Shown here: positions 137 through 58,740 of the stretch, piece after piece
Position numbering within the stretch: the first letter of the stretch is position 1
Layout of the letters: the number at the start of each line of letters is the position of its first letter
DNA from: Octopus vulgaris
Taxonomy: Eukaryota
Direction: 5' to 3'
Length of the DNA: 64,000 nt
NCBI GenBank assembly: GCA_951406725.2
Contig: OX597834.1
Coordinates: forward strand, 40,920,001 to 40,984,000
Made by a program: the position numbers and the translations under genes
Notes under the pieces: generated by a model
What the model was told of the DNA's origin: nothing
The model's input: the letters and a program-made list of their open reading frames with translations, nothing else
Database searches by the model: none

Positions 137-878
137 CTGCAAAGAGAAACAAAACAAAAATAAAATCATGTTATATAAAAACAGGAGCTGCTTAATTCGA
201 AATGACACACAGCCATCACTGTTGTCATGCTACCGTTATTACAGACGCACTGAATTACAGCCAACCATCATCACTCTTGGGGCAAGGAGGGCTTGGTAAC
301 ATGTATCATGCTTTTGCTAATTGCTTCAAATTTATCAGCATTGACCCAGTGAAATATCCAGGATGTGACAGGAGGAGGAGGAGGAGAGAGAGAAGAGAGA
401 GAGAGAGCTGCACCAGCATCCCACTGGTACTCATTACAGTTGAGTAGGCTGAATCACCATGCAAGCAAATGAAAGACAAACCTCTATCTACATAGAATGT
501 CGGTCTATAACAAACTACATTTCACATAAGGTACATGTTCCTACAAATAACTAGGTGTGAACTGAATCAATGTAGAATAAAATGTTCTATTCCAGAAACA
601 CAAAACACTTGCAGCAAACTTACGACACAACAGCAAGCAGTCCAATATCTTATATATATAAAGCTGAAGTTGTCTGTGTATGGCAGGCTTGGTAGCCTTC
701 AACTAACACTATCTCCTCCGAGACAGTGTTAGCTGGGATATGGTGCAAGAGAATCCAAATGAACACTTGTTAGCACCACAACATTATTTAATTATCAATA
801 TCACAAATTTAATGTATGTGTGTTGTTTAATGCTTATAGCTACAGAAGTCTCTTTAAAGATATATAGTGTTAGAAAAA

Positions 879-1303
879 CACAGATAGGGAACTTCAGGCC
901 CATAACTCTGCTAAACACAGAGTTAAAGATTTTGGCCAAGGTGCTAGCGAAAAGGTTGGCGTGGGTCATGGACAAACTTGTTGGGGAAGCGCAAATGTGT
1001 GCTATCCCGGGTAGGACGATCCACGAAAATCTCCACCTTATATGCTACTCCTTAGAGAGGGTGGGAAAGCTGTCTGGCGTAGTGGGGACACTGGTACATT
1101 TAGACCAGTCTAAGGCATTTGATAGGGTCGACCATCAGTACTTGGCGGCGGTGCTCGAGAAGGCTGGTCTGGGCCCGACCTTCCACGGTTGGATTGCTGC
1201 GTTGTACAGCGACATCGAGTCCATCGTAAAAGCAAATGGTTTCCTTTCGAAGCCATTCAGGATCGAGCGCTCAGTGCGTCAGGGGTGTCCCCTGTCCCTG
1301 CTT
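879..1303 (+). mobile_element. L1/Tx1-like LINE reverse-transcriptase fragment
   Basis: GC-richer block inside ORF 740..1339 with RT motifs NFRPITLLNTELKILAK, LDQSKAFDRVDH and VRQGCPLS; truncated at both ends. Confidence 0.85.
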
Positions 1304-1954
1304 TCAAGGCTAGGCAAAACGAAATTGTCTTGGAAGTGAAACAGAAAGAACAACAGATAATATTGCAGTTTTTGCCGCTTGTTGGTGCTGTGTGCTCACT
1401 CCACTCCCCAAACGCATCTGCAACGCCAACCAGAAGTATATATAACTAGTCTCTTTGACAAAATACAACAGTTACAAGTTTTTAACAAAACACATCCATT
1501 AAGTATGTAATGTTGATGAAGTTTACAATACAGAGTTGCTTCTAATGCAAAATTTGAATGTTCACATGCTGGTGCCATGCAAAAAGTACCCAGTACACCT
1601 TATAAAGTGGTTGGCATTAGGAAGGGCATCCAAGGGTAGAAACTATACCAAAATGGCCAGTTGGAGTCTGGTGCAGATCTCCAGCTTGCTGGCTTCTGTC
1701 AAAACATCCAACCCATCCATGCCAGCATGGAAAACAAATACTAAATTATTACATGATTATGATGATGATGATGGTGTAATAATTTTACAAGTAGCAGTCT
1801 AGCCACCCAACCACTGACATAACCATCACACAAACTTACCGCTTCTACCATAACCACAACCATTTCCCCCCACTGATACTACTACTAATAGTACTACCAC
1901 CACCACCACCACCACCAGACTAATATCAGCAACAAGGATGGAGAGGAGTCCTAC

Positions 1955-7790: not shown

Positions 7791-7889
7791 ATTCACAATC
7801 ATTAATAGGGCTTCAACATAATTTTTCTCTGTGTCAACCAACTCTTTGAGGCAGTGGTCCCGTTTTGTGGTTGGAGGTGGCATTCCCGT
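7791..7889 (-). CDS. vav: Vav exon, start of DH domain (TGMPPPTTKRDHCLKELVDTEKNYVEALLMIVN), phase 0 to 0
   Basis: cttacttacag|ACGGGAATG...ATTGTGAAT|gtaagt; 99 nt; DH CR1 motif KR..CL.E...TE..Y...L. Confidence 0.95.
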
Positions 7890-8749
7890 CTGTAAGTAAG
7901 CAGAAAGAAGCTATAAGACAGATTAACTATCGTAAAATGGCTACAATGCATTTCATAAATACCAATTTCATTTTACAGGGAATTTTATCATTATTATAAA
8001 TTATCATCATCTTCATCATCATCATCATCAAAGTCAGACTAAAATAAAATTTTAAAAAAAACAAATAAACATCTCAAATCATTTTTAAATGATATTAATA
8101 AGTTTGATAAAATTTTAGAAACTATTAACTATATCTTAAGGGATGAAAATGTTTTCATATTAATAATCAGCTTTATCTCTTGTCATTACTTGGTGTCTTA
8201 TTCTTGGAATATGTACATAGGAATTGATTTCCATTGGTTTCAACAATGAGCGTTCAGTTGTTTGATTAACTGAACTGCCAGGCTCATCGTATCAGTATCA
8301 GTAAGTAACTAAGCACTAACTACACAGACACATGTACCTTTGACATAATTCTAAGGCAGGATTTGTACAACAGGGTAACAAAACAAGATCCTTAAATTTC
8401 AGGTACAATCCATTCAACAGGCTCCCAAACAGCTTCTGTCCACCCATTTTCACTCATAAGGCTTGAATCAACCTGAGACTATGTTTAAATGACACTCTTA
8501 CCCCACGATGCCACACTTTAGAGAATGTGTTAGGGGTTGAAATGTAGATGAAGGGAGAAGTTGACAGGGCAGAGCCCCCTCGTGGACAGGCAAGTACATT
8601 GGATAATATAATGCTAGATACACTACGACTGGATGGTAAGGTAAATGAATTTCTGTCAGTTTCAGTAATGAGTAGTGAATAATTTGATCAACTGGACTAC
8701 CTGCTCAGTGAATTAGAATATGTGTGCCTTCAGTGTAATTCACACATGG

Positions 8750-17238: not shown

Positions 17239-17347
17239 TGTGGAGAATCTTTGATGTCGAATACACAAGTGTTCATAAATCTGTTCATCTTCCTCGCCGT
17301 CGTACACAACATCATATAAATCCTGGTTATCATCCAAGTCATTCTCA
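17239..17347 (-). CDS. vav: Vav acidic-region exon 5b (ENDLDDNQDLYDVVYDGEEDEQIYEHLCIRHQRFST), phase 2 to 0
   Basis: gttgttgtatatag|TGAGAATGAC...TTCTCCACA|gtaagt; 109 nt; DLYD (Y160-like) and QIYEHL (Y174-like) motifs. Confidence 0.88.
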
Positions 17348-23525: not shown

Positions 23526-23628
23526 CTGTGAAGTGGATTTGCGTTTAAGCGAGCACAAATCCTCATATATCTGCTGATTATCATCTTGTGTTTCTTTGTT
23601 ATACACTTCATGGTCATCTGGTAAGTCA
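23526..23628 (-). CDS. vav: Vav acidic-region exon 5a (DLPDDHEVYNKETQDDNQQIYEDLCSLKRKSTSQ), phase 2 to 0
   Basis: ggctttttccag|TGACTTACCA...ACTTCACAG|gtaaaa; 103 nt; IYEDL is the Y174-type autoinhibitory motif. Confidence 0.85.
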
Positions 23629-24771
23629 CTGGAAAAAGCCAAACAACAGCTGACAAGGGGCAGCAAATAGACATTTCTAAACAAGCCAGGTTTAGTTAGT
23701 ACCATAGATGTCATAATACAGAGAGGGGAAGAGAAGAGACAGGGAGGTGGGAGGAGAACAACAGGAGATCAAGAAGACAGACAATATTTAATGAATGGCA
23801 ATTAACAGGATATCAGATACACACAATTTATATATATATCAATACACACACACACATACACACACATGCATCAGACATTGATCTACAGGTGTTCACTTCT
23901 GTAGAAGGATCTTCTAAGGTGATAGGCACTATCCATCATGCCCTTACTAATGTGTGTCTGTGTGTATATGCGTGTGTATGTACATCAAAATGTCAAAATC
24001 AAAATAGTAAAAGATATCTTAGCCCTTGTTTGCACACAGTTTTCATTAAAGCACAGGAACCAGAAGTTATTCGATGATAACTCACTGAAAATCAGTTACA
24101 GCTGCAAAACCAACATTAAAAATATCTAAATGATTTACAAATTCTCCAAGAAATAATACAGGGTGCATATGCAAAAATAAAACTATGCCCCCTTCCCTCA
24201 AACAGAAATGAAAGAAAAGCAGCAATCTATTCTCCTAAAGATAATACTGGACAATTTCAAAACCTTGCTTCAAATTTATGAAACATAACAAAGAGTAATG
24301 CCACAGTCCTTTCAAGCTATATAAGGAAACTGAAAGACAAGAAAATTAACAAACTGCACATCTTTTGGGATAAGCTAAACCAAAATAAACCATACACTAA
24401 TGATTTCAATATTTGTACCCATATCATGGTAAGGTTTTGTGTGTATGTGTGAGTGTTTACTTTAAATGACCTCAAATGTTCACCAAATACAGACATATTA
24501 ACAAATTCCTCCAAGCTAATTTCAATGCATAACTGAAACCAAAAACAAAAATTTTACAATATACTGAACTTCCACTTTTCATATTTTACATTTCACACTT
24601 TCACATCCACAGGCTTCTGATCCCACTGAAATCAATGCCACATACCAAACACTATATTAAGATTAGCACATTCAATCTTTGAAACTCTCCCACTGTGGTG
24701 CAAAACAACCTATATGTATCATAATACAAATATCACATGTATACATGCATACATACCCATAAATACATACA

Positions 24772-34991: not shown

Positions 34992-35069
34992 AATGCCATC
35001 TCTTTGAGGTTACTGTAAATGTCTTCATCCTCATCGTATTCTTGGGTTTCTACGAAGGGTGGAAACTCG
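34992..35069 (-). CDS. vav: Vav acidic-region exon 4b (EFPPFVETQEYDEDEDIYSNLKEMA), phase 2 to 2; carries the Y142-equivalent DEDIY motif
   Basis: ttgctttctag|CGAGTTTCCA...ATGGCATT|gtaagt; 78 nt; resembles Vav1 PFPTEEESVGDEDIYSGL (recalled). Confidence 0.9.
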
Positions 35070-36691
35070 CTAGAAAGCAAACGAAGTACACAAAAGCTAA
35101 GCTAAGACAAGACACATGATCACAGGTTCCACTTCCAAACAAAGTGACCCACCACCAACAACCATCGCTTCAGAGCCAGCTGCCACTTCTGCTATTCCAT
35201 TGCATCAGACCAAACAACAACAACAGACTGCGGAAGTTTGGAGAGAGAGAGAGTTGACAAACTTATTTAGATTTGAAGAAAACACATGCCCAAACACGCA
35301 CAAACACACAACAACAACAACACAAACAATAACACACACTCAAGAACGGTCAAACTAGAAATTAAATGTTCATACAGGTTAGAATAAAGCGAATATTCTG
35401 ATTGGTTGAAATGCAGTTCTTTGTTATATTTTCGTTTCGTTTTATTTTTCTCATCCACTCAGATTAGTTATTAGTATCGTTTCGATGTTAAAAGTTGAGG
35501 GTTAAAAGAAGAATGGTTACAAGAAGCATGGATCAGTACCTGATACCTGAATTAGAATGTGACTATCTTATTACATCCATGGTGGTTGTTGCAATTATTA
35601 TTATTATTAAGAATGTAGTTAGCTGATAGAATTGTTATCATACTGGACAAAATACTTGGTGGCATTTCATCTGCCTTTATGTTCTGAGTTCAAATTCTGC
35701 TGAGGTTATCATCCTATCGGAATCAATGAGATAGAAACCCGTTAAGCATTAAGACCAATGTAACTAACTAACCCCACATCGTGTAAAAAAAAAATCTAAG
35801 TAAAAAGGATTATTATTATTATTATAGTAGAGGGGATTATCATTATTATTATTATTTTCCTCTTTGGCCAAGGGCTCATCAACTTTTTCAAGTTTCACTT
35901 GAAAAGGAAAGTGAGGGTGGATAGGAGAGTGTTGTCATCTAACAGGTTTGCTGAAAGGTGGGTGAATGTCCAGAAAATGGCCAGTGTCAAAGGAACGGGA
36001 TTGCCTTCAAAATATCTGACCATTAACCACATTTTTGATCCCCATCAAGTGTCTAATTCCTAGATATGTACACAGAAACAGTCTGAATTTGAACTAGAAA
36101 CCCTATTTAGTAGAAACAGTTTCAATTCAGTCAAGTACCTTTATTTCGAAACTAAAGGTAATAAAAATATATAAAGGTTCCCCACTTCAAATTCATTTTA
36201 GTACTATGTACCTATCCAGACACCTGATGATGATGAGTGTAGCTGAAATTGTCTGCAACACTGAATAGATGCAATTATTAAAGTTTCATTTTTAAACACA
36301 AGATTAGTAAAAAAATTCTTTATTTAGGAAATGTTTTAGAGAACAAGTGGTGTAGTAGTCTGTAAAGTTCACTTATCCCCAAATTTCATACTTATACCTA
36401 GCTAGCTCTGGGGTCAATTGGATAAGAGATTAATATCCCCATGGAATACACCACCAATCACAGGTAATATTCCTAGATCTGGTATCTATCTATTCACTGA
36501 AGACAGCTTTTTTTAGTAATTAAGCACTCAAATATTAAATATTATAGCAGTCAGCTAATCTATTCCATAGCCAGATCTGATGGCTGGTTTAATAAACAAA
36601 TGAACTGGTAGTCTAGTTTTCTACCAGACTACCAGATGATCTGGTGGCTTCCTACTCTATCAGACAACCAAACGAATTAGTAACAAAACAC

Positions 36692-36778
36692 TCTATCAGA
36701 CTACCTGTTGATCTGGTAACGAGCTATTCTATCAGACTACCTGTTGATCTGGTAACGAGCTATTCTATCAGACTACCC
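36692..36778 (+). repeat. 36-bp minisatellite (CTATCAGACTACCTGTTGATCTGGTAACGAGCTATT), ~2.3 exact copies within a degenerate array at about 36600-36930
   Basis: Direct repeats read from the sequence. Confidence 0.8.
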
Positions 36779-37744
36779 AGATCATCTGGTCGATAACCAT
36801 TACACTAAATAACCAGTTGTCCAGGTAGCTTGCTATTCTACTCGATTACCAAGCATTTTGAGAGCTAGCTTTTTTATGTAACAGTTAGATCTGGTTGCTA
36901 GTTATTCTCTCAAGCAACCAGATATTGTACCCAACAGGTAAATTTTCAAATCACTATTACACATTGGTGCAAATGAAACTACAAAATACCAGCAACAGAT
37001 TTCAAACAACTCACACCAGGAGCTGGTCATCAGTGTTATACCTTAATCCGATCGAACTCAATCTGTTTGTGACTAACCTAAAAATATCTGCTGTGTAAAT
37101 CTTATCAGAACAACCATATCAATGTTCACGCCAAAATGAACTTAAGACTTTTGATAAACAGAAATCGACAGAAAAAAACTGCCCAACAAAGTATGGGAGA
37201 AGGTTGCAACTTTGATCTAATCAACTAAAATCACTAAAAGTGATAAGTGCCAGAATGGTTGAAGTCCAAGGATTGAAACCAATAAAAGAATCAAGGAATA
37301 CAAGAATACACAGCAAACATTAACTTGACTCAATTCTGTCTTTGGAATACAGAAACTTTATTAAATAGCTACACAGTTAGCAGTTGTTATTAAGCCCAGG
37401 GCCCAACCTAATCAAAGGTTATCCAGCTCTGATCGTCCCATCTTTTCATGGATATGTTGGACTAGATTGTCTACAAAATATGAATTACACCTATCTTTTG
37501 ACAAATAGGTGTGTTTACACCAATTTATCTACAGCAAGAATTCTTCTCTATGACAAAATACAGTGAATGACTTTCTTACAGATTCCATTATATCTTAATT
37601 ATATTTGAACTGGTAACAACTTTAGATTGTCTATAATATTCTTTCTATGTTTAAGATGAAAGTCTCCTTCCTTTATTGAAGATGGATGCAATTCAAGAGT
37701 GATTTGACTGCCATTTCTAACAGATTGCTAAATATAGTCAGGCA

Positions 37745-37965
37745 GGTTCATTTAAAGAGGAGTTACTCTTTTGTTCTCCTGCTGACACAGCTACCAAGAC
37801 TGAAGATATTCTGGAAAAAGTTTCATTTTGTCTGACATTCATGGGATTAGAGAATATTTTATGGGATAATGTCTGTAAGTGCTGCCTAGATGGAGCATCA
37901 ACCTAAAATACTGGGAACAAAATCTGAATTTTAAGATAATGTAAGGAAGCAAGCTTCAACTGTAA
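37745..37965 (+). pseudogene. Fossil hAT (Buster/Charlie-like) transposase fragment
   Basis: Translates with frameshifts and stops to GSFKEELLFCSPADTATKTEDILEKVS...LWDNVCKCCLDGA...LGTKSEF*..VRKQA, matching the EEFLFC...W..C..ICTDGA..M.G..SGF pattern; hAT-like end GGTTGAGAACCACTG at about 38624-38638. Confidence 0.65.
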
Positions 37966-38049
37966 AAAGGCCTCAAAAACACTTCCAGTGCAACTAGGTT
38001 ATAAAACTCCATCATAAAACATCATCCTAATTAAAGTATACGTATATGT

Positions 38050-38358
38050 GCCAGTGGCACGTAAAAATCACCAACCGATCGTGGCCGTTGCCAGCCTCCT
38101 CTTCTCCCTGTGCCGGTGGCATGTAAAAATCACCAACATATGGTGGCCGTTGTCAGCCTCCTCTTCTCCCTGTGCTGGTGGCACGTAAAAAGCACCCACT
38201 ACACTCACTGAGTGGTTGGCGTTAGGAAGGGCATCCAGCTGTAGAAACACTGCCAGATCAGACTGGAGCCTGGTGCAGCCTCTTGGCTTCCCAGACCCTG
38301 GTCGAACTGTCCAACCCATGCTAGCATGGAAAACGGACGCTAAACGATGATGATGATG
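38050..38358 (+). mobile_element. Repeat with internal GTGGCACGTAAAAAGCACC subrepeats and a (GAT)n tail (SINE-like; tail probably shared with an RTE LINE)
   Basis: Homologous copies at 16635-16785, 54270-54650, 57585-57870, 53300-53475 and, on the opposite strand, 60150-60325. Confidence 0.7.
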
Positions 38359-38944
38359 TATTAATTCCAAAAAAATAAGAATTTCAGGAAGAAAGCCCTA
38401 AAACAGCACACATTCTCTCCTAATGATCCCATAAGCTTGCTAGCAACCAGTATGCAGAGCTTTCAACAGGTAGCACGTGCATCTGCAAGTTGTTAGCAAA
38501 AGAGAAAAAATTGCATATTATTTAAATGCGACTTTTGACTCTCACAATCTTGAAAAGGAGAGAATAGGATTTTGAAACATGATTTAAAGGATGGATGGAG
38601 TAAAAAAAGACAGAAAAAAAAAGGGTTGAGAACCACTGATGTATAAGCTTCTTTGTTGCTTTCAATAACTGATAGTCGTGGTCGCATTACATTTGAAAAT
38701 GTTCTAAACTGTAATGTTGGCAGGACTCTTCACTTCTAATTCTATTAGAGTTTATAAGGAACAGTTGGAGACTTGCCTGCAATCTTTATAGATACATCAG
38801 TTGCCAACATAATTAGGTCTTACCATTCCACCAGACCCTTCCCATCTCTCTCTCTCTCTCCAATTTTTTTCCTTTTTTTGGTTTTACACATACATATATC
38901 TCTCAATTCATAATTTGTTGCCAGAAAGTCAGATGAATATTGTG

Positions 38945-38979
<35 letters not shown>

Positions 38980-39142
38980 CTTTACATGTATACACACACA
39001 TAGACTAAGAACAGGCAAGGTTGAACATTCAATAAGTTAGCTGTATTTGGTAAGTTAGCCACAAGTTCAATCCAATTGCACAGCACTTTGGACAAGTATC
39101 TTCCACTATACCACTAAGTCAACTAATGCCTTGTAAGCCCAT

Positions 39143-39176
<34 letters not shown>

Positions 39177-40060
39177 TTTCTAATCTGCATTGAGTTACAC
39201 TACAGGTGGTGATGTCACCATTTGTAACTAAACATCGACCAGTGACATTTCTTGACATTTCCCGTCATTAACTTGTCCACTAGCTCTACACTTTCAAATT
39301 CCTCTGCAATTAAAATTTCCTTGAAAAATTATAATGATTGGTTGCAGCAAGGGCATCCAGCCTCACAAATCTTACCTTACATCCTTTCCCCATCAAATCA
39401 TTGCCAGCATGGAAAGACAGACACACAAATGTCAAACTGTCTAACCCATGCCAGCATGGAAAGCGGATGTTAAACAATCATCAATCTATCTGTGTGGGAG
39501 CCCTTTCAAGTGGTCGTTTGTGCTCACACAGGTACCACTCAACAACTACCCAGGTCCCCTAATTATCAGTGTACCATGCAACATGTCAGGCCTATCTGAT
39601 TTGATTCAGACAGTATTCGACAATAAAGTGCTTTACTCCAGTTCTTTCTCTGATCTGCTTGTTTCAGATGTGATCTCTCAAGGAAATAGTATATACAATG
39701 TATATCATATACAAGCAGGGCCATCTACCTGAAGTGATTTGTCTACCTTCCTTCTTACTAAGACTTTGGTTTTGGCTAGATTCACTCCAAGGCCTTTCAA
39801 TTCTAGACTTTGCTTCCACACCTGAAACTTCTCTAGTTCTGATAGTGTCTAAGCTATTAGAGCAAGGTCATCAGCATAGAGGAGCTCCCAGGGGTATCCT
39901 GTCTTGAATTCCTCCATTATTGCCTGGAGGATTATGATAAGAGAGGGCTGAGGAATGATCACATTTAGATGGTGCTTCACCAGATGGAGTACTTTATTTT
40001 GTTGATCATACCTTCATGGAATGGTATAATGTAATGTAATATAATATATATATATATATA

Positions 40061-40519
40061 TAGAAAAGAAAAGGAATGGATGAATAATAAACAGTGAGAA
40101 GTTGATCATTGGTATTAAAAGGTCGTAGTTTAATTGTAGTTCAGAACCATTTACAGCTGTTTCTTTTTATCAAATCAAAGTAAATTTGCATTTATCTTGT
40201 TCCATTTAACAAACATCATCAGAATGATGTAAAGGAATATAAATAGGAGCAAAAGGAAAAAGTTTGTTAAGTCTTTAGGCTACATTTTAGTGACCTTTTG
40301 GGTTCCACATGTGTGTATGTTTCTTCAATTAGAAGAATGTAGTAAGGGGGGGGGGAATGACTAGTTGACCGGCGGTGTTAGTCAAAGGAGTTATACCTGG
40401 TGGAGATATCCCAGTGTTGATAATTATCATATATAATGCTGTTAGTGACAATTAAACTATGACCTTTTAATACCAATGATCAACTTTTCCTTGTTTATCA
40501 TTGCTCCATTTCTTTTCTA
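40061..40519. mobile_element. Microsatellite-embedded element with ~75-bp imperfect terminal inverted repeats, containing a hammerhead ribozyme
   Basis: Arms 40061-40137 and 40448-40519 (GTTGATCATTGGTATTAAAAGGTCGTAGTTTAATTGT / ACAATTAAACTATGACCTTTTAATACCAATGATCAAC); flanked by (TA)n and (CA)n(TA)n. Confidence 0.8.
40146..40228 (-). ncRNA. Putative type I hammerhead ribozyme with canonical core
   Basis: AUCAUU-CUGAUGA-UGUUUGUUAAAU...AUUUGAUAAAAA-GAAA-CAGCUG-UA/AAUGGU: 6-bp stem I, ~12-bp stem II (one G.A mismatch), palindromic stem III ACAGCUGU, GUA cleavage triplet. Confidence 0.65.
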
Positions 40520-40871
40520 CACACACACACATATATATATATATATATTAAACCACAGTTTTACCTTTAAATTACCAACTACTGTATACCCTAGAGCTAG
40601 GACTATACATAGTAAGGTAATACACCAGTAATGCCTACAGATACATTTATCCCTTAGACGGTTGCATAACCTCTAACTCATATTTTACCTATATATATAC
40701 ACACACACACACCTTTATATTTCAGATCTGAACCAATTCAGATGGTGTCTTGTGCTGATTTTTCTTTTTGTTTCCCATTATAATCAATATAATTCAAACA
40801 TCCTAATGATGTACATGCATATGTCTATATTAGTATACATGTGTGTGTGTGTGTGTGTAGCTGTATACACT

Positions 40872-40883
<12 letters not shown>

Positions 40884-40925
<42 letters not shown>

Positions 40926-41066
40926 TATATACATATATATACATATATACACATATATACATATACATACATATATACATATATATATATACATACATAT
41001 ATACATATATATACATATATATACATATATATACATACATATATACATATATATACATATATATAC

Positions 41067-41113
<47 letters not shown>

Positions 41114-41136
41114 CATATATATATACATATATATAC

Positions 41137-41197
<61 letters not shown>

Positions 41198-41242
41198 CAT
41201 ACATATATATACATATATATACATACATATATATACATATAT

Positions 41243-41289
<47 letters not shown>

Positions 41290-41332
41290 CAAGTGTGTGT
41301 ATAAGTAGACACACACATATATATATATATAT
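40884..41332. repeat. Long compound (TA)/(TACA) microsatellite
   Basis: Low-complexity tract that generates spurious Y/I/H/T ORFs. Confidence 0.95.
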
Positions 41333-42003
41333 GTATAAGTAGATGTGTGTGTGTGTGTGTATAAGTAGATAGAGAGAAAGGAAGGGACTGATAAAACAAA
41401 TAATATAGAAAATGACTGAGATATAAGTGAAAGAGAAAATGTTTAGTGATAAAAAGATTTCTGAATGCAGTGTTAATCTAAGAAAATTCCAAAGTAGAAT
41501 TAGAACACAGAGAGAAAGAAAGAAAGGTGGTGGTGGTGGTGGTGGTGGTAGCAGAGTGTTGAATATCATGCTACATGGATACTTGAAGCAATCAAAGAAC
41601 ATGAACACCGACAGAGGAACAGTTAGTTTAGAAATAGCATATGAAGACATTATTGTGTGTGTGTATAATATATATATATATGCATACATATATATATACA
41701 TATATATATATACGTATATACACACACTTCCAAAGAACTTGTGTTCCATACATAGCAAAGATTGGGAAGGAAACATTGCTGAACATCATTAAACTGATTA
41801 AACACATAGAGAGGAGAGGGAAGAGTTCCTGTGTGCGAGGAAGTGTGGGTAGAATAGACAGACGGACAGACAGACAGTTGTAGATTGTGTGTGTATATAA
41901 ATATTTGAGTGCATTGATAGACGTAAATTACATATGTCTAAGCCTCTGTGTGTGTGTGTGTGTGTGTGTATCAGTAGAGAAATAGATGCAGATTATGAGT
42001 GCA

Positions 42004-42036
<33 letters not shown>

Positions 42037-42037
<1 letters not shown>

Positions 42038-42271
42038 TTTATTTAAAAGCAGCAGAAAATTCAACAAAACCTGTTACTCTGAGTTTCACGTTTCCGTTCG
42101 TCGGACAGTTTTTGCTATTCTAGAAAAAACTGTCCGACGAACGGAACGTGAAACTCATAGTAACAGGTTTTGTTGAATTTTCTGCTACTTTTAAATAAAG
42201 CATATTACTCTACCACTGGTATTTGAGTACTCTTATTTCCACCTTGTTTCACATTTATGTGTTTACTCCGG
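42037..42271. mobile_element. (TA)n-embedded fold-back element: 164-bp palindrome (42037-42200) plus ~70-bp tail, with a hammerhead-like fold in each arm
   Basis: Arms reverse-complementary with few mismatches; each reads CUGU-CCGACGA-ACG(GAA/GAAA)CGU-GAAA-CUCA(U/G)AG-UA-ACAG outward from the centre. Confidence 0.8.
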
Positions 42272-43137
42272 TATATATATATATATATATATATATAGGT
42301 AGGTAGATAACTATATACATGTCTGTCTGCCAGCCTGTCTGTCTGTGGTGAAGAAGTTCGTTTCACAACAAGGATGTGATCTCTGATCCAGTCTCACTGC
42401 ATTACATCTGGAGCAAGTGTCTAATACAATAGCCTAATGCCTAGGTGTGTGTGTGTGTGTGTGTGTATGTATACATGTATGTATGTAAGTACACTGTATG
42501 TGCATGTCTTTGTATGTGTCAGTCTCTAGGCCCTGTCTTTACACTGACACACATGAAAAAAAAACAAGGTTTTGTTTTTTCGTCTTGTAACAAAATAGTC
42601 CAATACATATTGATAAGATAAGTCTTAGACTTAAAAATCAGTATAAGATTGAATATGACTGACTAATATTCTTCAAAGTGATTTTCCTCAATAAGACCAC
42701 AATCCAATTACTGCAAGCAGACTGGAGCATGTGTAGGTGTGTGTGTGTTAGGTTACAGCTACAGCTTATAGCATCATGATAATTGAAGTTTCATGTCCCT
42801 TGGACATTCTTCAAACCTGAAAATTAATTGTTAGAACTGTTACTTTCTCACAGTGGATCAAGTTCTAAAAGTTAATATTCTTGTCTGAAGAATGTCCAAA
42901 CTACAGAAAATGTTAAGGTATTAGAGTGTTGAAAGCCAGAATTGTAACTTAACATTTTAAATATATGCTCTAACTTAAGTACTGAGTACTTTTTTTTTTT
43001 GCTTGTTTGCTTTTTTTCTTAATTTGTTCCTAGTTTTAGTGTATGTGATGTCACACAAATTATTGTGCACATATACACACACACACACACACATGAAAAA
43101 CAAATATGTAGGAATATATGTATGCTTTTAATATGTT

Positions 43138-43162
43138 TATACACACATACATACATATATAT

Positions 43163-43193
<31 letters not shown>

Positions 43194-43527
43194 CATACAT
43201 ACATATCTATATACATACATACATATATATATATATATACATACATACATATCTATATACATACATACATATATATATATATACATACATACATATCTAT
43301 ATACATACATACATACATATATATATACATACATACATATATATATACATACATACATACATATATACATACATATACATATATATATACATACATACAT
43401 ATATATACATACATACATATATATATACATATATACATATATATATACATACATACATATATATATACATATATATACATATATACATACATATATACAT
43501 ATATATATACATACATACATACATATA

Positions 43528-43593
<66 letters not shown>

Positions 43594-43604
43594 TAAAAAA
43601 TATA

Positions 43605-43640
<36 letters not shown>
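43138..43640. repeat. Long compound (TA)/(TACA) microsatellite ending in poly(A)
   Basis: Low-complexity tract. Confidence 0.95.
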
Positions 43641-43655
<15 letters not shown>

Positions 43656-44274
43656 TACAGGACAGCTCAGATTACCAATCTCTACCCACATCTCTTTCTT
43701 CAACAAGATGAGGTATTGAAGGACGAAAAGAAGGAAGATAGAGAGGAATAATAGAGAAGATGGGGCAGGGGCGAGGCCTGGAAGAGAGAGAGAGAGAGAA
43801 AGAGAGAAAGATATGGGAGAGGCGGAAAAGAGAAATATGTGAGTGACAATTTGAAATAGAGTGTAAACAGAGGGAACAACAAATGTTGTCAGCTTTATTA
43901 CATCTTCACCACCACCAAGATCAACAACATTACCACCACCACCACCACCAATACCATTACAAGAAAAATCCAGGACAACAAACCAAGCAGGGAGCTTCAG
44001 CTTAGTTGCTCAACCATTGTAAGAATCGTTGCAAAGTCTCCCTCCAACGCCACTCTATTATTTTATATAACACTCCATTATCTTATAAATAAGAAAAAAG
44101 TGAAGATAGAATGATGTAGCCCTAAATACATTATGCTTTAAGAAAAAATGGGCAGGTCATGGGTGGAATGCCTTTGATCACATGTCAGTTGGATCAGAGC
44201 TGACTTAGGCTAAACAACTGGCTTTGATAAGTTTTTGCTTCCTTTAGGACAGTGTAATCTCTCTCTTAAAATCA

Positions 44275-44752
44275 TTAACCCTTTCGTTACCAACCCGGCT
44301 GAAACTGGCTCTGAAAACAAATATCTTGTTTTCATAAGTTTTGAATTAAAAATCTCCCACCAAACCTTAGTCACAATTTATGTCCCTAACACTAGCTTAA
44401 TGATAACAAAGTTATTTTACTAAATTTTTTGTTATATTTAAAGTAACTGAAAGAAACACAGAGCATCTCAACAGCAATATGGTAACAAAAGGGTTAAATA
44501 ATATATAATAGAGAAACAATTATTAACCCCTTTGATACCAACCTGGCTGAGACTGCCTCTGGCTCTGTAGTACAAATGTCTTGATTCCAAAAGTTCTGAA
44601 TTAAAACCTTCCACCAAACCTTAGTCACAATTTATGTCCCTAACACTAGCTGAATGATAACTAAGTTATTTTACTAAATTCTTTGTTATATTTAAAATTA
44701 ATTGAAAGAAACACAGAACATCTCAAAATAAATACAGTAACGAAAGGGTTAA
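44275..44752. mobile_element. piggyBac-type MITE dimer, same family and same spacer as 26701-27185
   Basis: TTAACCCTTTCGTTACC...GGTAACAAAAGGGTTAA, spacer AATATATAATAGAGAAACAATT, second unit ending GAAAGGGTTAA. Confidence 0.85.
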
Positions 44753-45762
44753 CACTTAGTAACTGTAAGCTATGAGCGTCTAAGAAAGATAGTGCAGTGC
44801 TCATAGGGCTCACAATCCTTCCTCTTTCCCCTACAGTATCTATGGGAGAAGACAAATGCAGTGCCCAATTAGGATTCCGGTCCCTCACCTTCCATATGAC
44901 TAAAGAGATTGATATGATAAATTAATTATTGTCCAGCTTGAATTTCTCCGAGGGTTGACCTGATTAAATATAAACAAACCATGCGCTTATTTCAGAATAG
45001 AAATATAGAAGTAATAAATATAAAACTTGTTGTTCTTGCAATTGTCTTATTGTTGTTGTACCTGATAGTCTACCTGTGTTTATTACTGGAAAATGCCATT
45101 TCAACCGTGAAAGTTTAGTTCTGAGTTAACATGTAATTTATGCACATGCTTGCTTGTATTATGCACATACACAAATGCACCAAAAGACAAGATTAGTATA
45201 ATAACAAGGTTTATATATATATATAAGAGCATACATGCAAACAAACCCACATATATACACATATACCTACAAGAGTTAGTAGTGATTAGTCTTTCAGCAA
45301 TTAATAATACAGATTTTGTGACAACTTCCTTTTTTGCTCTGCTGTGCTCTGCCACTGAACATTTGCACACATGATGTGATGTTGATGTCACCAGCTCCTC
45401 CAATACACAGCTAATACTACTGCTACTAACACTACTACTACTACTGCTACTACTACTGTTAGCAAATGCAAAAAAAAAAACACAAAAATAAACTTTAAAA
45501 AAAAAATTATAAAATGATGAAAACAACAGACAGCAGAAGGGTAGGCGAGAGACACAAATTAAGGATAAACGAACGAACGGATAGACGGACGGACGGACGG
45601 ACGGATGGACGGAAGGACGGCTGGACGGATGGATGGATGGATGGATGGACTGGTGGTTTGGGAGGAGGATTGAGGATGGGTGACATTGATCCTTGAACCC
45701 ATAAAAGTGAGTGTATGATTATTGAGCAGGCTTGGGTGACAAGGACTGCATCAAGCACTTAC

Positions 45763-45837
45763 GTTGCAAGATCCTCCAATGTGTTGTAATAATCATGTTC
45801 AATAGTGAGAGGTCTCGTATCAGGAGGAGAGAACCCT
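45763..45837 (-). CDS. vav: Vav acidic-region exon 4a (GFSPPDTRPLTIEHDYYNTLEDLA), phase 2 to 2; paralogue of 34992-35069
   Basis: ctctcctttttctcaattgtag|AGGGTTCTCT...CTTGCAAC|gtaagt; 75 nt, open in the phase-2 frame left by the CH exon; F-x-P...D-x-Y-x-x-L-x-[DE]-x-A pattern shared with exon 4b. Confidence 0.8.
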
Positions 45838-48800
45838 CTACAATTGAGAAAAAGGAGAGCAAAAGAACGGTAAGAAACCAAGGGGCAACGAAGGTCAAGG
45901 GTCAGCTAACAGAGGAAAAAAGAAATTGGGAAAAAAAAAATTTTTAATAAATATATTAAAATATTACTTATTGATAATAGTAAGATATTTTTTTTTTTTT
46001 CCTTTTTTTTTTACTGTAACTTTTGTTCTTTTTAAAGAATATTTCAGTAATTATATTTTTCAGATTTTCAATTAAAAAGAAGAAAAAAAAAGAAAGAAAG
46101 AAAGAAGTTTACCATTGAAATAGATTTAATGTGTTTTTCTCTTAAAGTGGATTTCAATTATTTCTTTTAATTTTTTTTCTGTTTGTATATATACACACGC
46201 ATTCCAATATGCATACATGTGTATGTATACACACACATACACACATATATAAATGCATACATATAGACATGTTTGTGTATGTGTGAGTGTGTATGTGCAT
46301 AAATATATTTAAACATATACATGTATACCTAAATACATATATATATATGCATATATTTATATTTGCACACATATAAATACATATATACATACATTTATAC
46401 ATATGAGTATACATTATATATGTATTCTATAATATATAATATGCACACACACACGTGTGCACATGCGTATATGTACATACACTCACATGTGTGTGTGTGT
46501 GTGCATGAATGAGCACTTGCATGTATGTGTGCATAAACACACATATTATGGCAGGGGTTTGGGTGTTTGGGATGAGGGGAAGCTATAATATTGACCCTCT
46601 TTCAATAACTGACCGATTCCAGACACCAAATGTCCAATGCAACATGTGAAACCAGCCAAAGCTGCTAAGATTCTCGAGTAAATCTGAAATTCTAGGACCT
46701 TCTACCTTGATATTTAGTCACACTTCTGTGCCCCGATTTCACACAGTTCCAAAATGAACTTTTAGGACTTCTGCCTATACAAAGTACAAATTATCTCAGA
46801 ATTACTATTACTACTAATACCACTACAACTTTCAATTCTGCTACTGCTATATAGAGCTGCAGGGGGGTGGGGGAGTCGATGAAAAATATTTCATTAGTAG
46901 ATAACATTCATGCAAGTAACTACGCAGCCCAGCTTATCTCTAGATTCCCAAAGCTATTTCCTCCACTACACTTAGCTTTTTATGCAAGACACATGCACAA
47001 TGAAAGAACCAAGACAACGAGCATTGGCACTAATCCCGTGAGAAATACAGAAATCTAGGAATGGTGAATGGCTTAAGCCATCCCGCCCCCTTTCTTGTGG
47101 GCTTTCTTTGGGTGTTTCTCGCTCATGGTTGCTTTAGTAGAAACAACTGTGTTCTTTGATAATAGATTTGTTCCATCAACCAGATTGACACCACCATTTG
47201 GTTCTTGGGTGCCTTTCGTGGAGTCCACTTTTTTGCAAGCAAACATTTAGACCAAGTCTCTGATCTGAGGATGACCAATAAGATCCGATCCTTCACCAAC
47301 CAGTCTCTCTCAGAGACCCTGGAATAAGATACTAGGCACTGCCCTTCCACTTCTAAATAAGCTATATAGCATTTTTAAAAAATAGAACACTATAAATAGC
47401 CCCAGAGATTATTTTAGCACAGCAAACTGCTTCCCCACTAGAGAAAAAAAAACTTTTAATCTACTTCACAATAACACTCTTATGACGTAAACATCTCTCT
47501 GATTACAAGTGCAATCTTGTGCATCATTATCATCATCATCATCACAGTCTTACATTCATTTACAGTTGCCATGGGCCAACAGTCTGAAGTAGCATGCCTC
47601 ACACAAAATGTCTTCAGATGCTGTGGAAGAATCTCTGTATACGACAGTGCTCCCTCAATCACACTGCTAAAGCTTGCTTGGATTTGAACCACTAGAGTTT
47701 CTATGGAGTTGTTCTACCCAGTAGAAATAGCAACAAAATCCTTCCTTAAATAATCTCTAAAACAAAAACAGTAGGACACACTCAATGAATGTAAAAATTA
47801 GCTAGACTATGACTTTCATCATAGGTTTACTAGGTCAGGACCGACTCGGGGCTAAACTACTGCTACTACTCAGGTAGCAAATCGGCAGAGTCATTAAAGC
47901 AGAAGGTAAAATGCCTGGGAAGTATTCATTCCAGTTCTCTGGAAATCCTACCAAAGTTGACTTTGCTTTTCCTCTTTTTGACATTGACGAAAAACATATC
48001 ATTCCTGAACTGGGGTCAATACTTATCTTTCATTTTGTCTCTGGAAGAAATCAGCTGTATTCACACATAGTAAGGGACAGGCTGTGTATTAGGCTAAAAA
48101 TGCTCAAGACACAACATATGTCAGGACAGCATCTCTAGATCTATCAGGAGTTAAACCCACCATCACTACTTAAACATTATCACCAAAACAGGACCGTTAA
48201 TAAGAATTTCTTTTCCCTTTCTTCTAGCTCTGCAATTTACCAAGAGATAGAAGGAACATAACCAAATGCAGTTTCCAACTGCCCCACCCCAACAAAGGTT
48301 CTGGAGGGTTACTGCCACCCTACCCTACTGCATCTTATTGTTTACATTTGTTAATATTCGTCTTAAGGAATACAGAGCAAAGTTCTGGCAATTACGACAA
48401 AGAAATGTTACTTATGTTAGCAGCATATACGATAAGATGTGTCCACTACATCTCCATTAGCATTATTTCATTAACAGTTGTACTAAGAAGCTGAGAGGTG
48501 TCAATAATTGCTAGAAGCTGATTAAGTCAAATAATAATAATAATAATAATAATAATAGTAATAAATCATCTGACAATAATGTTTAATAGAAGACAATTTT
48601 CAAGTGGTAATAGAATCAATTATACAATAGATTACATTAACATTCAGGATTACAAACACACACACAAATATACACATAGACATTTATATCTAAATTCATG
48701 CATACATTCATAGACACATATATTCACATACAGACATATATATACACATACATATTTATATATACACACATACATCGAAACATGCACATTTATACACACA

Positions 48801-55429: not shown

Positions 55430-55485
55430 CTGGCAGTCTTTTGAGCTAGTTCTGTTTTAGAAAGTTTCGACAATGTGTACAAAAC
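55430..55485 (-). CDS. vav: Vav GEF exon, end of calponin-homology domain (VLYTLSKLSKTELAQKTA+AG), phase 0 to 2
   Basis: Minus strand reads ttttctcctatccag|GTTTTGTACACA...ACTGCCAG|gtatgc; 56 nt. Translation resembles the last CH helix of Vav1 (VIYTLSALSWTPIAQ, recalled). Confidence 0.9.
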
Positions 55486-56416
55486 CTGGATAGGAGAAAA
55501 AGAAAAAAAATCCAATAAAGAAAATAATATTAACAAGTTCTTCATAATAAAATCTTAACAATATTTTTATTGTTTCCTGTGGTATTGGTAGAGAGGAATG
55601 AGGAGTGCGTGTATGAAGCCTGGAGAGGTATTTGTATGAGGGGAAGGGTTTGACAGGCAGGGTAAATGGTAAAGAGATTTGGGAAACACGCAACAGACCC
55701 TACTCTATCAGTCAAGCTAACTTTTGACAAATACACTGCTATGCCAAACACACAGGCCATGGTCAATTATACGAGTACATGTGTTGGATATACAGAGGGC
55801 ATATGTCAAATATGCAAGGTACATGTAGCAAATATAGTGATTATGGATATTGAATATAGAGTACATAGGTCGAATAAACAAAGTATTGATGTGGAATGTA
55901 CAGGATAAAGATGCCAAATTTATAGAGGGCATATGTCAAATATAAAAGAGTACTTGTATCAAACATACATTGTACCAGAGTCAAGTATACAGGGTGCTGA
56001 TGTCAAATATCTAAGATAGCAATGTCAATGAGATAAATATACAGCTCTAAAATATATGATGAACCCTTTGATAAAATATCTCACTGGTCTTAGTCACCAA
56101 TAGCAACTAGAGACTCCCTAATACTCTTGATCTACACTCAACTTGTATCTCCAATACACACACACACTTTATAGGTATTTTCTTCCAAAGTGACAATCTT
56201 CGCATTATTTCTTAAAGTCTAAAGATAATTGTTTAGTTCCAGCTCAGCCCTGATAACAGTAGGTACACAATTGAATACCATATCACTTATACTATTGATG
56301 TACTTTGATCTAAAATTACATTCTCTAAAATCTTTTTGCATTTTGTTTTTCCCAAGGTGATTGTAACTAATTTAAAATAAGCTCGTGAGATATCCACTAT
56401 GCAATTAATTGACCTG

Positions 56417-56716
56417 CAAGAAGACAATATGGTATGCAAAAAGGTATGGCTGTGTGGTCAAGAAGACAATATGGTATGCAAAAAGGTATGGCTGTGTGGT
56501 CAAGAAGACAATATGGTATGCAAAAAGGTATGGCTGTGTGGTCAAGAAGACAATATGGTATGCAAAAAGGTATGGCTGTGTGATCAAGAAGACAATATGG
56601 TATGCAAAAAGGTATGGCTGTGTGATCAAGAAGACAATATGGTATGCAAAAAGGTATGGCTGTGTGATCAAGAAGACAATATGGTATGCAAAAAGGTATG
56701 GCTGTGTGGTCAAGAA
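56417..56716 (+). repeat. Seven 42-bp tandem units fused to the 5' end of a SINE
   Basis: Unit CAAGAAGACAATATGGTATGCAAAAAGGTATGGCTGTGTG(G/A)T starting at 56417, 56459, 56501, 56543, 56585, 56627 and 56669; the last unit runs into a family-A-like SINE body. Confidence 0.95.
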
Positions 56717-58740
56717 ATTCACTTTGCAACCACATAGTTTTGGTTCAGTTTCATTGCATGACATCTTGGGCAAGTTGCTTCTACAAAAGCTTTAGGCCAG
56801 TCTATACCTTTTGAGTGAAAAGTGGTTGATGGAAACTGTGCAGAAACCTGTCATTCATGTATTTGTGTGCAATGTGTACAAGATGTAGATTCAGGCATGG
56901 GTGTATGGTAAGAACATTGCTTCTCAACTAGGTTCAACCCCTCTGCATGCCACTTTGAGCAGGTGTCTTCTATTATAGCCCTGAGCCAAGCAAAGCCTTG
57001 AGTGGATTTGGTAGACAGAAACTGAAAGCGCATCACAGATGTGTGTGTATGTGTGTGTGTGTGTGTGCATGTGAGTGTCTTTGTGTCTGTACCCCACTAC
57101 CACTTGAAAACCTTGTGGGCATCTTTACATCCCTGTAACTTGGCAGTTCACCAAAAGAGATCAATAGAATAAGTACCAGGTTCTGATATATATATGTCAG
57201 TAGATATCTTTTATGGACACACATAATATATATTGTGCAGGTAGTTAGGATAAATCCCATGTATGTGTGTCCCCTTTTTTTCCTTTACTGGGGCTGTCTG
57301 TGCTGCTCCTGATTACAATCTAAATATAAATGCTTCACTTAAATGTAAAATTTGGATTATTTAATTTTTTGTCTGAAGAATTTCTAATAGGAAATTCCTT
57401 ACATGTCTATTTAACATGTAAAACTCCATAAATCCTATTAGCAAATGAAACATGTGTAATGGTGAATAAATAACATCCAAAAATTTCCAATTTTGCTACG
57501 CTTATGATATGTATGTATATACTATTGAGTCAAGTACATCAGCATCAAAATAAAAATCAAATGGAAATTGTAGTTGTGACACCCGTACCAGTGGCACCTA
57601 AAAAGCACCATCTAAACGTGGCTGATGCCAGCACCACCTTGGCTGGCTCTGTGCTGGTGGCACATAAAAATCACCAGCCGATCGTGGCTGTTGCCAGCCT
57701 ACTCTGGTCCCTGTGCCGGTGGCATGTAAAAAGCACCCACTACACTCACAGAGTGGTTGGCGTTAGGAAGGGCATCCAGCTGTAGAAACACTGCCAGATC
57801 AGACTGGAGCCTGGTGAAGCCTCCAACCCATGCTAGCATGAAAAACGGACGTTAAACGATGATGATGATGATTATTATACATGTGACATACTCGTACAAT
57901 ATACACATAGTTGACAGACTCATGCAGGCATGCATGCTTACTTGTATGGGTCTGTTTTTACATAGATACCATTTGAAAACAAAGCCTTTGTTTATGTCTC
58001 ATAACTTAGCAGATCAACAAATAGAGATTGATATGTACCAGGTGTAAAAATATGTACTAGGATCAATGTGAATGACTGAAACCCTTCAAGCTGGTAGCTC
58101 AGCACGGCTGCAGTCAAATGATAGAAGCAGTGAAAGTGTATCATCTTATTTGTAATTAGTTCAAATGGAAAACAATACTCAACCACTTGTGTATAGACAT
58201 TAAAATATTAGCTATAACGAAAGACATACGAATGTACCACAAAACTACAATTGCCTAGGTCTGTAAGTGTTGTTAATTACATAATTAAAGGCATTATGAC
58301 AGTTTAAAAAAAGTGTCCCTCATCCCATTTTTAATTGGCTCTGCTGGAATGATAAACAACCACTTTTGTAGATACATTGGCAGATTGCCTAAAGAGATAG
58401 ACTTAGGCATGTTCCAAAAAAATAGTGAGATTTATAGATATTGCTGGGGCATATTCACACAGTATTTGCTAACCTTGAACACTCTCTTATGCATGTTTAC
58501 CGAGAAATAGCTGTTTCCTTTTGATGCAAAACAAGGTGCAATACACTTGATCTATTTCTCAAACCGCAAATTGAAGACATCATAAAAATTTCTGACAAAT
58601 GCATGCACAGAGCCAGAAATTTGAGGAGAAAGCCTGAGTAGATTAAATTTACCTCTGTACACCACTGGTACTTAACCATTCACTCAGAGATAAGAAAGAA
58701 GGATGCAACTAACAGCTAAACCCAGCAAGATTTGTATGTA

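What the first reader, a model, noticed from the sequence alone, without database searches (positions are those of the whole stretch)
34992..45837. Second duplicated pair: two versions of the Y142-equivalent acidic exon
Seen: exon 4a (45763-45837; GFSPPDTRPLTIEHDYYNTLEDLA) and exon 4b (34992-35069; EFPPFVETQEYDEDEDIYSNLKEMA) are both phase 2 to 2, 75 and 78 nt long, with strong pyrimidine tracts and gtaagt donors. They share an N-terminal F-x-P and a C-terminal D-x-Y-x-x-L-x-[DE]-x-A. Neither appears in the ORF track. 4b keeps the canonical acidic DEDIY site; 4a replaces it with a much less acidic EHDYY. Inference: these are alternative, probably mutually exclusive, exons. Because both are symmetric, frame does not forbid double inclusion or skipping.
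Basis: partly seen in the sequence, partly recalled or inferred. Interest (0 to 1): 0.75.

Follow-up and report, generated by a model that had tools for sequence, protein, structure and literature searches.

The report
Twin tyrosine exons in octopus Vav
The octopus gene for the signalling switch Vav carries two old copies of the exon for its first regulatory tyrosine and splices in one or the other, with both together annotated in related animals; one copy carries a highly conserved Tyr-Tyr-Asn motif that is predicted, but not shown, to add a docking site for the adaptor Grb2.

Summary
Both exons are real and lie where stated, in the octopus vav gene (minus strand). They are paralogues of the exon holding Vav1 Tyr142. 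Spliced contigs join 4b directly to the CH exon in 3 of 3 spliced runs whose junction letters were shown, and no contig joins 4a to 4b. Exon 4a is spliced too, and is conserved in cuttlefish, bivalves, chiton and the brachiopod Lingula (11 of 13 core residues identical). Exclusion is not strict: 36 of 122 mollusc/brachiopod proteins, from 7 species, are annotated with both exons, while 14 of 14 transcript-assembled proteins hold one. The choice tends to go with the next pair (4a+5a, 4b+5b). The notable feature of 4a is an invariant H-[DE]-Y-Y-N. YYN also occurs in tapeworm and orthonectid Vav, and just before an intact Tyr142 site in nematodes. It resembles the Grb2-binding YYN of Shc; docking is untested. 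The isoforms are in automated annotations; no paper describing them was found. The scan noted a related Vav exon pair in another genome (e1-7593968), apparently the exon-5 pair. Verdict: genuine, ancient, moderately interesting member of a known kind.

The parts
55430..55485 (-). vav exon 3, last CH-domain exon (56 nt, phase 0 to 2); common upstream exon
   Evidence: its last 28 unshared letters are the loose end upstream of 4b in spliced contigs
45763..45837 (-). exon 4a: Tyr142-equivalent exon with H-D-Y-Y-N motif (75 nt, phase 2 to 2)
   Evidence: contig piece with exon-exact ends in run X5 (record 24); single match in the genome; conserved to Lingula
34992..35069 (-). exon 4b: canonical acidic D-E-D-I-Y exon (78 nt, phase 2 to 2)
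   Evidence: spliced exon 3 to 4b to 5b in X6, X10, X11
23526..23628 (-). exon 5a: Tyr160/Tyr174 exon, less acidic version (103 nt, phase 2 to 0)
   Evidence: also in bivalve proteins
17239..17347 (-). exon 5b: Tyr160/Tyr174 exon, acidic version (109 nt, phase 2 to 0)
7791..7910 (-). exon 6, start of DH domain; two acceptors, 7889 and 7910 (the latter adds 7 residues)
45879..45887 (-). 9-mer shared with the region upstream of 5a (23654-23662); weak candidate for a coupling element
   Evidence: only two copies in the window; 138 of 20000 pseudo-acceptor pairs share such a word; found after the fact

Best explanation
Exons 4a and 4b are tandem duplicates of the Vav exon that holds the Tyr142 regulatory site; they are spliced as alternatives, likely one at a time in most transcripts with a minority holding both, and 4a is predicted to change how the switch is read by trading the acidic Tyr142 context for a YYN site. 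Shown: both exons are spliced; exon 3 joins 4b directly; 4b runs on to 5b; 4a is under strong constraint across molluscs and a brachiopod. Inferred: the choice tends to be coupled with the next pair, giving a canonical acidic linker (4b+5b, net charge -18) or a half as acidic one (4a+5a, -9); selection is likely by splicing factors, since frame, spacing and flanking RNA pairing do not enforce it. Predicted, untested: in the 4a form Src-family phosphorylation of the tandem tyrosines both loosens the CH-acidic clamp on the DH-PH core, as Tyr142 does in Vav1, and creates a pY-x-N site for a Grb2-type SH2 domain, as at Shc Tyr239/240. My odds: alternative splicing of a duplicated pair about 0.95; mostly either/or but leaky about 0.7; coupling with exon 5 about 0.6; SH2 docking about 0.35.
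For: Paralogy. Exon 3 to 4b to 5b junction letters in 3 of 3 spliced runs, one contig each; unbranched from exon 3 to exon 6 in X6 and X11. In X5 the 4a and 4b pieces each end exactly at the donor and extend over the AG shared with exon 3 (letters not shown). Proteins: 74 4b-only, 12 4a-only, 36 both, 0 neither of 122; 14 of 14 Logan-assembled proteins single, 1 as 4a+5a and 13 as 4b+5b; bivalve 4a-only forms go with 5a in 3 of 3. Conservation: mean pairwise identity of the 13-residue core 73% for 4a, 60% for 4b over 7 genera; YYN in 10 of 10 distinct 4a variants. YYN in 8 of 66 distant Vav linkers at the same distance from the CH domain; shuffle mean 0.59, 0 of 5000 reach 8. Tyr142 role: PMC4601183, PMC6562523. 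YYN and pYxN as Grb2 sites: PMC11342145, PMC11630764, PMC3514216.
Against: Contigs drop rare variants, so neither the share of double inclusion nor tight coupling is measured. Double inclusion rests on automated gene models only. Coupling has exceptions: 4b+5a in 10 of 74 4b-only proteins, 4a+5b in 3 of 7 cephalopod 4a-only proteins, and the X10 and X5 contigs stop 30 letters into the next exon, as at a branch. Octopus 4b also has a Y-x-N, as do most molluscan 4b exons, so pYxN is not unique to 4a; octopus Vav also has a P-x-x-P-x-R motif that could bind Grb2 without it. No 4a form among 15 Mytilus and 14 scallop proteins listed. No phosphorylation, binding or tissue data.
Confidence: 0.55

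Rival explanations
1. Strict mutually exclusive pair; the annotated double-inclusion forms are rare mis-splicing multiplied by isoform-building software.
For: No 4a-to-4b join in 3 of 3 runs nor, by contig ends, in X5; 6 of 6 listed O. vulgaris proteins and 14 of 14 Logan proteins hold one exon. PMC5740500 notes that a single joining read can wrongly reject a true pair.
Against: Double inclusion is annotated in 7 species from cephalopods, bivalves and a brachiopod; nothing in frame or spacing (10.7 kb) forbids it; nematodes carry YYN and the IY site in one chain, so the double form looks tolerable.
Confidence: 0.2
2. 4a only retunes autoinhibition: His and the extra Tyr pack against the CH/PH surface or change kinase preference, and YYN is not an SH2 docking site.
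For: The second Tyr and the following L-x-[DE]-x-A are in Tyr142 register; conservation covers the whole 11-residue stretch, not only YxN; a proline-rich Grb2-type motif is already present.
Against: In nematodes YYN lies 5-6 residues before an intact IY site, so it is kept where it does not replace Tyr142; Asn follows YY in 8 of 14 YY-x words in the distant linkers.
Confidence: 0.3
3. 4a and 4b are two independent cassette exons, and the form with both, which carries both tyrosine modules as nematode Vav does, is a major regulated isoform.
For: 36 of 122 proteins hold both; composite motif in nematodes and a YNN variant in Priapulus.
Against: Counts of gene models are not abundances; 0 of 122 skip both, which independent cassettes would allow; no double form in any contig or Logan protein examined.
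Confidence: 0.12
4. 4a is a dead or chance exon-like sequence, or both exons are constitutive.
For: None.
Against: Exon-exact contig piece, 11 of 13 identity to Lingula, direct exon 3 to 4b joins.
Confidence: 0.01

Closest known systems
Tandem duplicated exon substitution events / mutually exclusive homologous exons (PMC9741552, PMC5740500, PMC9013439)
   Same: Adjacent homologous exons of like length and phase, used as alternatives, ancient and conserved.
   Different: Double inclusion is in frame and annotated; two clusters follow each other (4a,4b,5a,5b) with a tendency to coupled choice; the swapped part is a phospho-regulatory linker, not a folded domain. 'vav' does not occur in the main text of these three papers.
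Vav1 acidic region Tyr142/Tyr160/Tyr174 autoinhibition (PDB 3KY9, 6NF1; PMC4601183, PMC6562523)
   Same: Same domain order; 4a/4b align with the Tyr142 segment and 5a/5b with Tyr160/Tyr174.
   Different: The solved Vav1 chains have one version of the segment; octopus has two versions of each half; 4a has Y-Y-N in place of I-Y-S.
Shc Tyr239/240 YYN Grb2-binding motif (PMC11342145, PMC11630764)
   Same: Tandem tyrosines followed by Asn in a disordered linker of a tyrosine-kinase substrate.
   Different: No homology is claimed; binding and phosphorylation of the Vav motif are untested.
Insect vav isoform pair
   Same: Alternative versions of a Vav acidic-region exon.
   Different: Those proteins differ in the Tyr174 exon, not the Tyr142 exon; their exon-4 segment has no YYN; orthology of their versions to 5a/5b was not resolved.

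Membership tests
Tandem duplicated exon pair | Adjacent exons in one gene, homologous in sequence | tested here: met
   8 of 5000 peptide and 6 of 2000 DNA shuffles reach the score; both align with the Vav1 Tyr142 segment
Tandem duplicated exon pair | Similar length and same reading phase | tested here: met
   75 and 78 nt, both phase 2 to 2
Mutually exclusive exons (criteria of PMC5740500) | Junction from upstream exon to the second exon, bridging the first | tested here: met
   Exon 3 to 4b letters in X6, X10, X11
Mutually exclusive exons (criteria of PMC5740500) | Junction from the first exon to downstream exon, bridging the second | tested here: met
   Logan-assembled protein P0004 (a related cephalopod) is 4a+5a; 12 of 122 proteins are 4a-only, 2 of them O. 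vulgaris; junction letters for this species were not seen directly
Mutually exclusive exons (criteria of PMC5740500) | No junction joining the two exons unless it shifts the frame | tested here: inconclusive
   Absent from contigs, which drop rare forms; present in gene models of 7 species. Not filed as a strict member.
Mutually exclusive exons with competing RNA structures (Dscam type) | Docking site pairing with selector sequences beside each exon | tested here: inconclusive
   0 of 25 donor-flank/acceptor-flank duplexes beat random windows (best 45 of 100); deep intron sites and cross-species conservation not examined
Vav family GEF | CH-acidic-DH-PH-C1-SH3-SH2-SH3 architecture with Tyr142/160/174 sites | tested here: met
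   Pfam domains and names; E 1.5e-138 to Vav1 structure chain
Grb2-SH2 docking site (pY-x-N) | Asn two residues after a tyrosine | tested here: met
   First Tyr of YYN in 10 of 10 4a variants; rule from PMC3514216 and PMC11342145
Grb2-SH2 docking site (pY-x-N) | The tyrosine is phosphorylated and binds the SH2 domain | not testable with these tools
   No phospho-peptide modelling or assay available

The most novel reading that the evidence does not exclude
The protostome ancestor's Vav linker carried two tyrosine modules, a Shc-like YYN docking site and the acidic Tyr142 clamp. Nematodes and priapulids keep them in one stretch; spiralians hold them on two duplicated exons, so that splicing, coupled to the next exon pair, switches the single invertebrate Vav between a canonical GEF, a Grb2-recruiting form and a form with both. 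Tapeworm and orthonectid Vav would have kept only the YYN copy, and deuterostomes only the acidic one.
Probability: 0.2. Interest if true: 0.7.

Novelty: new member of a known kind. Interest (0 to 1): 0.42.

Why it matters
Vav is a textbook case of layered phospho-autoinhibition, and invertebrates have one vav gene (PMC6562523). Here natural variants swap exactly the two exons that carry Tyr142 and Tyr160/174, and have been kept from brachiopods to octopus. They give ready-made variants for testing what the Tyr142 arm does, and point to a conserved YYN element in protostome Vav that the reviews read here do not mention. A 2014 review states that nothing was known about signalling differences between Vav splice forms (PMC4601183).

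Tried and rejected
Structure prediction of the 4a+5a and 4b+5b forms (11 and 14 aligned sequences): nearly all of the acidic region had pLDDT under 50, so nothing is drawn from it and no fold search was run. RNA pairing between exon flanks: no signal. Laying four runs on the 11-kb stretch holding both exons was swamped by repeats; 95 joint rows were hidden. Run X3 covers 4b unspliced and tells nothing on splicing. No run was on record as RNA; the spliced junctions themselves show that X6, X10 and X11 hold cDNA. Contig depths were not used to rank exons. A degenerate 4a pattern found nothing in metagenome contigs. A region search with the Lingula 4a segment returned only Lingula. Orthology of mollusc 5a/5b to insect versions: scores mixed, unresolved. 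The idea that YYN replaces a lost proline-rich Grb2 site was dropped for molluscs: 7 of 9 proteins checked have P-x-x-P-x-R, the two nematode ones do not, one of them partial. No complex prediction was sent, since a phosphopeptide cannot be modelled. Yu et al. 2010 (Vav1 structure paper) was not held; it is known here only through reviews.
Full report
Gene. The window holds the middle of a vav gene on the minus strand. A DH-domain exon matches proteins named Vav of Octopus vulgaris and O. sinensis at 100%, and these map exon by exon onto the window: exon 3 (55485-55430), 4a (45837-45763), 4b (35069-34992), 5a (23628-23526), 5b (17347-17239), exon 6 (7889 or 7910 to 7791) and further DH exons. 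Exon 2 lies about 19 kb beyond the window; exon 1 was not found in the 40 kb fetched.

Observation. The two exons are homologous: 8 of 5000 peptide shuffles and 6 of 2000 DNA shuffles reach the observed scores, and no third copy appears among 19 candidate symmetric exons in the region. A degenerate pattern for the 4a core matches once in the 2.8-Gb genome, control 0. Alignment with human Vav1 from PDB puts the second Tyr of 4a at Tyr142 and the exon-5 tyrosines at Tyr160 and Tyr174.

Splicing, direct evidence. Four of 24 listed runs were laid on 4b. Three gave a single contig covering exactly the exon; the loose letters are the end of exon 3 on one side and the start of 5b on the other. In X6 and X11 the contig runs on for 139 letters, which equals 5b (109) plus 30, so it is unbranched from exon 3 to exon 6. 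In X10 it stops 30 letters into 5b, as at a branch. The fourth run is unspliced. In one search (four runs, 11 kb) run X5 gave one piece exactly on 4a and one exactly on 4b, each extending over the AG that exon 3 shares with the acceptor; the bin holding 4a had cover in 4 of 4 runs. So 4a is skipped when 4b is used in these contigs, and no 4a-to-4b join was seen. That 4a then goes to 5a in X6 and X11 is inferred by elimination. The tool warns that contigs drop rare variants, so a minority of double inclusion is not excluded.

Splicing, protein records. Of 146 proteins examined, 19 were dropped (partial, or anchors not matched, among them the brittle-star rows) and 5 are insects. Of the 122 mollusc and brachiopod proteins left, 74 hold 4b only, 12 hold 4a only, 36 hold both and none holds neither. 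Both occur in gene models of O. sinensis, Sepia pharaonis, Solemya, Ostrea, Crassostrea virginica, Magallana gigas and Lingula. All 14 proteins assembled from sequencing runs hold one exon (1 as 4a+5a, 13 as 4b+5b). At most 15 members a cluster were listed, and model counts are not abundances. Coupling is a tendency: 64 of 74 4b-only proteins have the 5b-type exon (4 of them from species where only one exon 5 was seen); 4a-only goes with 5a in 3 of 3 bivalve and 4 of 7 cephalopod cases. By the criteria of PMC5740500 the two bridging tests are met and the no-joining test is open, so I do not file this as a strict mutually exclusive pair. 5a plus 5b together (212 nt) would shift the frame; 4a plus 4b (153 nt) would not. 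Spacing of 10.7 kb rules out steric exclusion, and flank pairing showed nothing, leaving splicing factors as the likely selector (inference). A 9-mer shared upstream of 4a and 5a is a weak lead (138 of 20000 by chance).

Conservation. The 13 residues around the Tyr142 position of 4a are 11 of 13 identical between octopus and Lingula; mean pairwise identity over 7 genera is 73% for 4a, 60% for 4b and 37% between the paralogues of one species. The duplication thus predates the split of molluscs and brachiopods. H-[DE]-Y-Y-N is invariant in 10 of 10 distinct 4a variants. No 4a form was among 15 Mytilus or 14 scallop proteins listed: loss or missing annotation.

The YYN motif reaches further. A profile search returned 150 representatives; 66 of the 149 new ones had both anchors of the CH-DH linker, and 8 of these hold YYN, 7 of them 24-29 residues after the CH-end motif (octopus 26; the eighth was mis-anchored by the script and reads about 26 by hand). 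Shuffles give a mean of 0.59, and 0 of 5000 reach 8. The profile was built from 4a-bearing isoforms, which may favour such hits a little. Named carriers: the tapeworm Schistocephalus (3 of 3 members) and the orthonectid Intoshia have YYN in the 4a register with no IY site; the nematodes Romanomermis, Trichuris and Ascaris have YYN 5-6 residues before an intact IY site; a mite has YYN with Phe at that position; Priapulus has a YNN variant before IY. Two carriers are unnamed. The annelid Owenia, the insect proteins and the brittle star examined lack it. Exon boundaries in these animals were not available, so whether one composite exon was duplicated and split, or an older pair fused, is open.

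Mechanism. In Vav1 the CH domain with Tyr142 and Tyr160 clamps the DH-PH core, and the Tyr174 helix blocks the GTPase site; phosphorylation opens it (PMC4601183; PMC6562523; PMC6767298). The octopus exons give linkers of net charge -18 (4b+5b) or -9 (4a+5a). I infer that the 4a form has a different threshold or kinase preference. YYN is also the form of the Shc Tyr239/240 site, which Src can doubly phosphorylate and Grb2 binds (PMC11342145; PMC11630764; Asn at +2 rule, PMC3514216). Against a special role: most molluscan 4b exons also have Y-x-N, and octopus Vav has a P-x-x-P-x-R motif. Structure models were uninformative for this region. Docking is therefore a prediction at about one in three.

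Literature. Ten searches of the held library listed no paper on alternative Vav acidic exons in any invertebrate; four aimed searches gave 0, 0, 0 and 1 irrelevant hit. Subscription papers are not searched. Seen: passages of PMC4601183, PMC6767298, PMC11342145, PMC11630764, PMC3514216, PMC5740500, PMC9013439 and PMC9741552 (plus its one held supplementary file, no 'vav'); passages and section 4 of PMC6562523; other papers as listings only. Gene lists in supplements not seen could include insect vav. The isoforms themselves are in automated NCBI and ENA annotation.

Verdict. Real, ancient, alternatively spliced duplicate exons, mostly either/or and probably leaky: a new member of a well-known kind. 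The added interest lies in the second, partly coupled cluster and in the conserved YYN element. Interest 0.42.

Noticed in passing
window 23628-23526 and 17347-17239 (-): Second pair, exons 5a/5b (Tyr160/Tyr174); joint inclusion would shift the frame. Both versions occur in oysters, mussels, clams and scallops; Mytilus, Ruditapes and scallop 5a lack a Tyr at the Tyr160 position. Owenia also shows two versions.
   Followed up: partly
window 7910 and 7889 (-): Two acceptors 21 nt apart for exon 6; the upstream one adds 7 residues between the Tyr174 helix and the DH domain, annotated in O. sinensis and O. bimaculoides.
   Followed up: partly
window 45887-45879 and 23662-23654 (-): Same 9-mer upstream of 4a and 5a, nowhere else in the window; 4b and 5b have UG-rich upstream introns instead.
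   Followed up: partly
window about 23700-23694 (-): Perfect TACTAAC branch-point-like word about 70 nt upstream of 5a; label from recall.
   Followed up: no
proteins P0007, P0013, P0017: The three O. bimaculoides models listed lack the CH domain, starting at the end of 4b or in exon 6; assembly gap or true CH-less, potentially deregulated forms.
   Followed up: no
proteins P0001 versus P0004, PH domain (outside the window): Octopus proteins have 7 extra residues in the PH domain that the related cephalopod protein and Vav1 lack; possibly a microexon. The region after the first SH3 also differs between isoforms.
   Followed up: no
window 707-1336 (+): Open frame of 210 codons that looks like a fragment of a LINE reverse transcriptase (label from recall, not searched).
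   Followed up: no
window 56381-56744: Tandem array of a 42-nt unit, about 8 copies, upstream of exon 3 (seen as repeated translation).
   Followed up: no
window about 35640-35870, 37870-38610, 44175-44916: Interspersed repeats that draw thousands of contigs from the runs.
   Followed up: no
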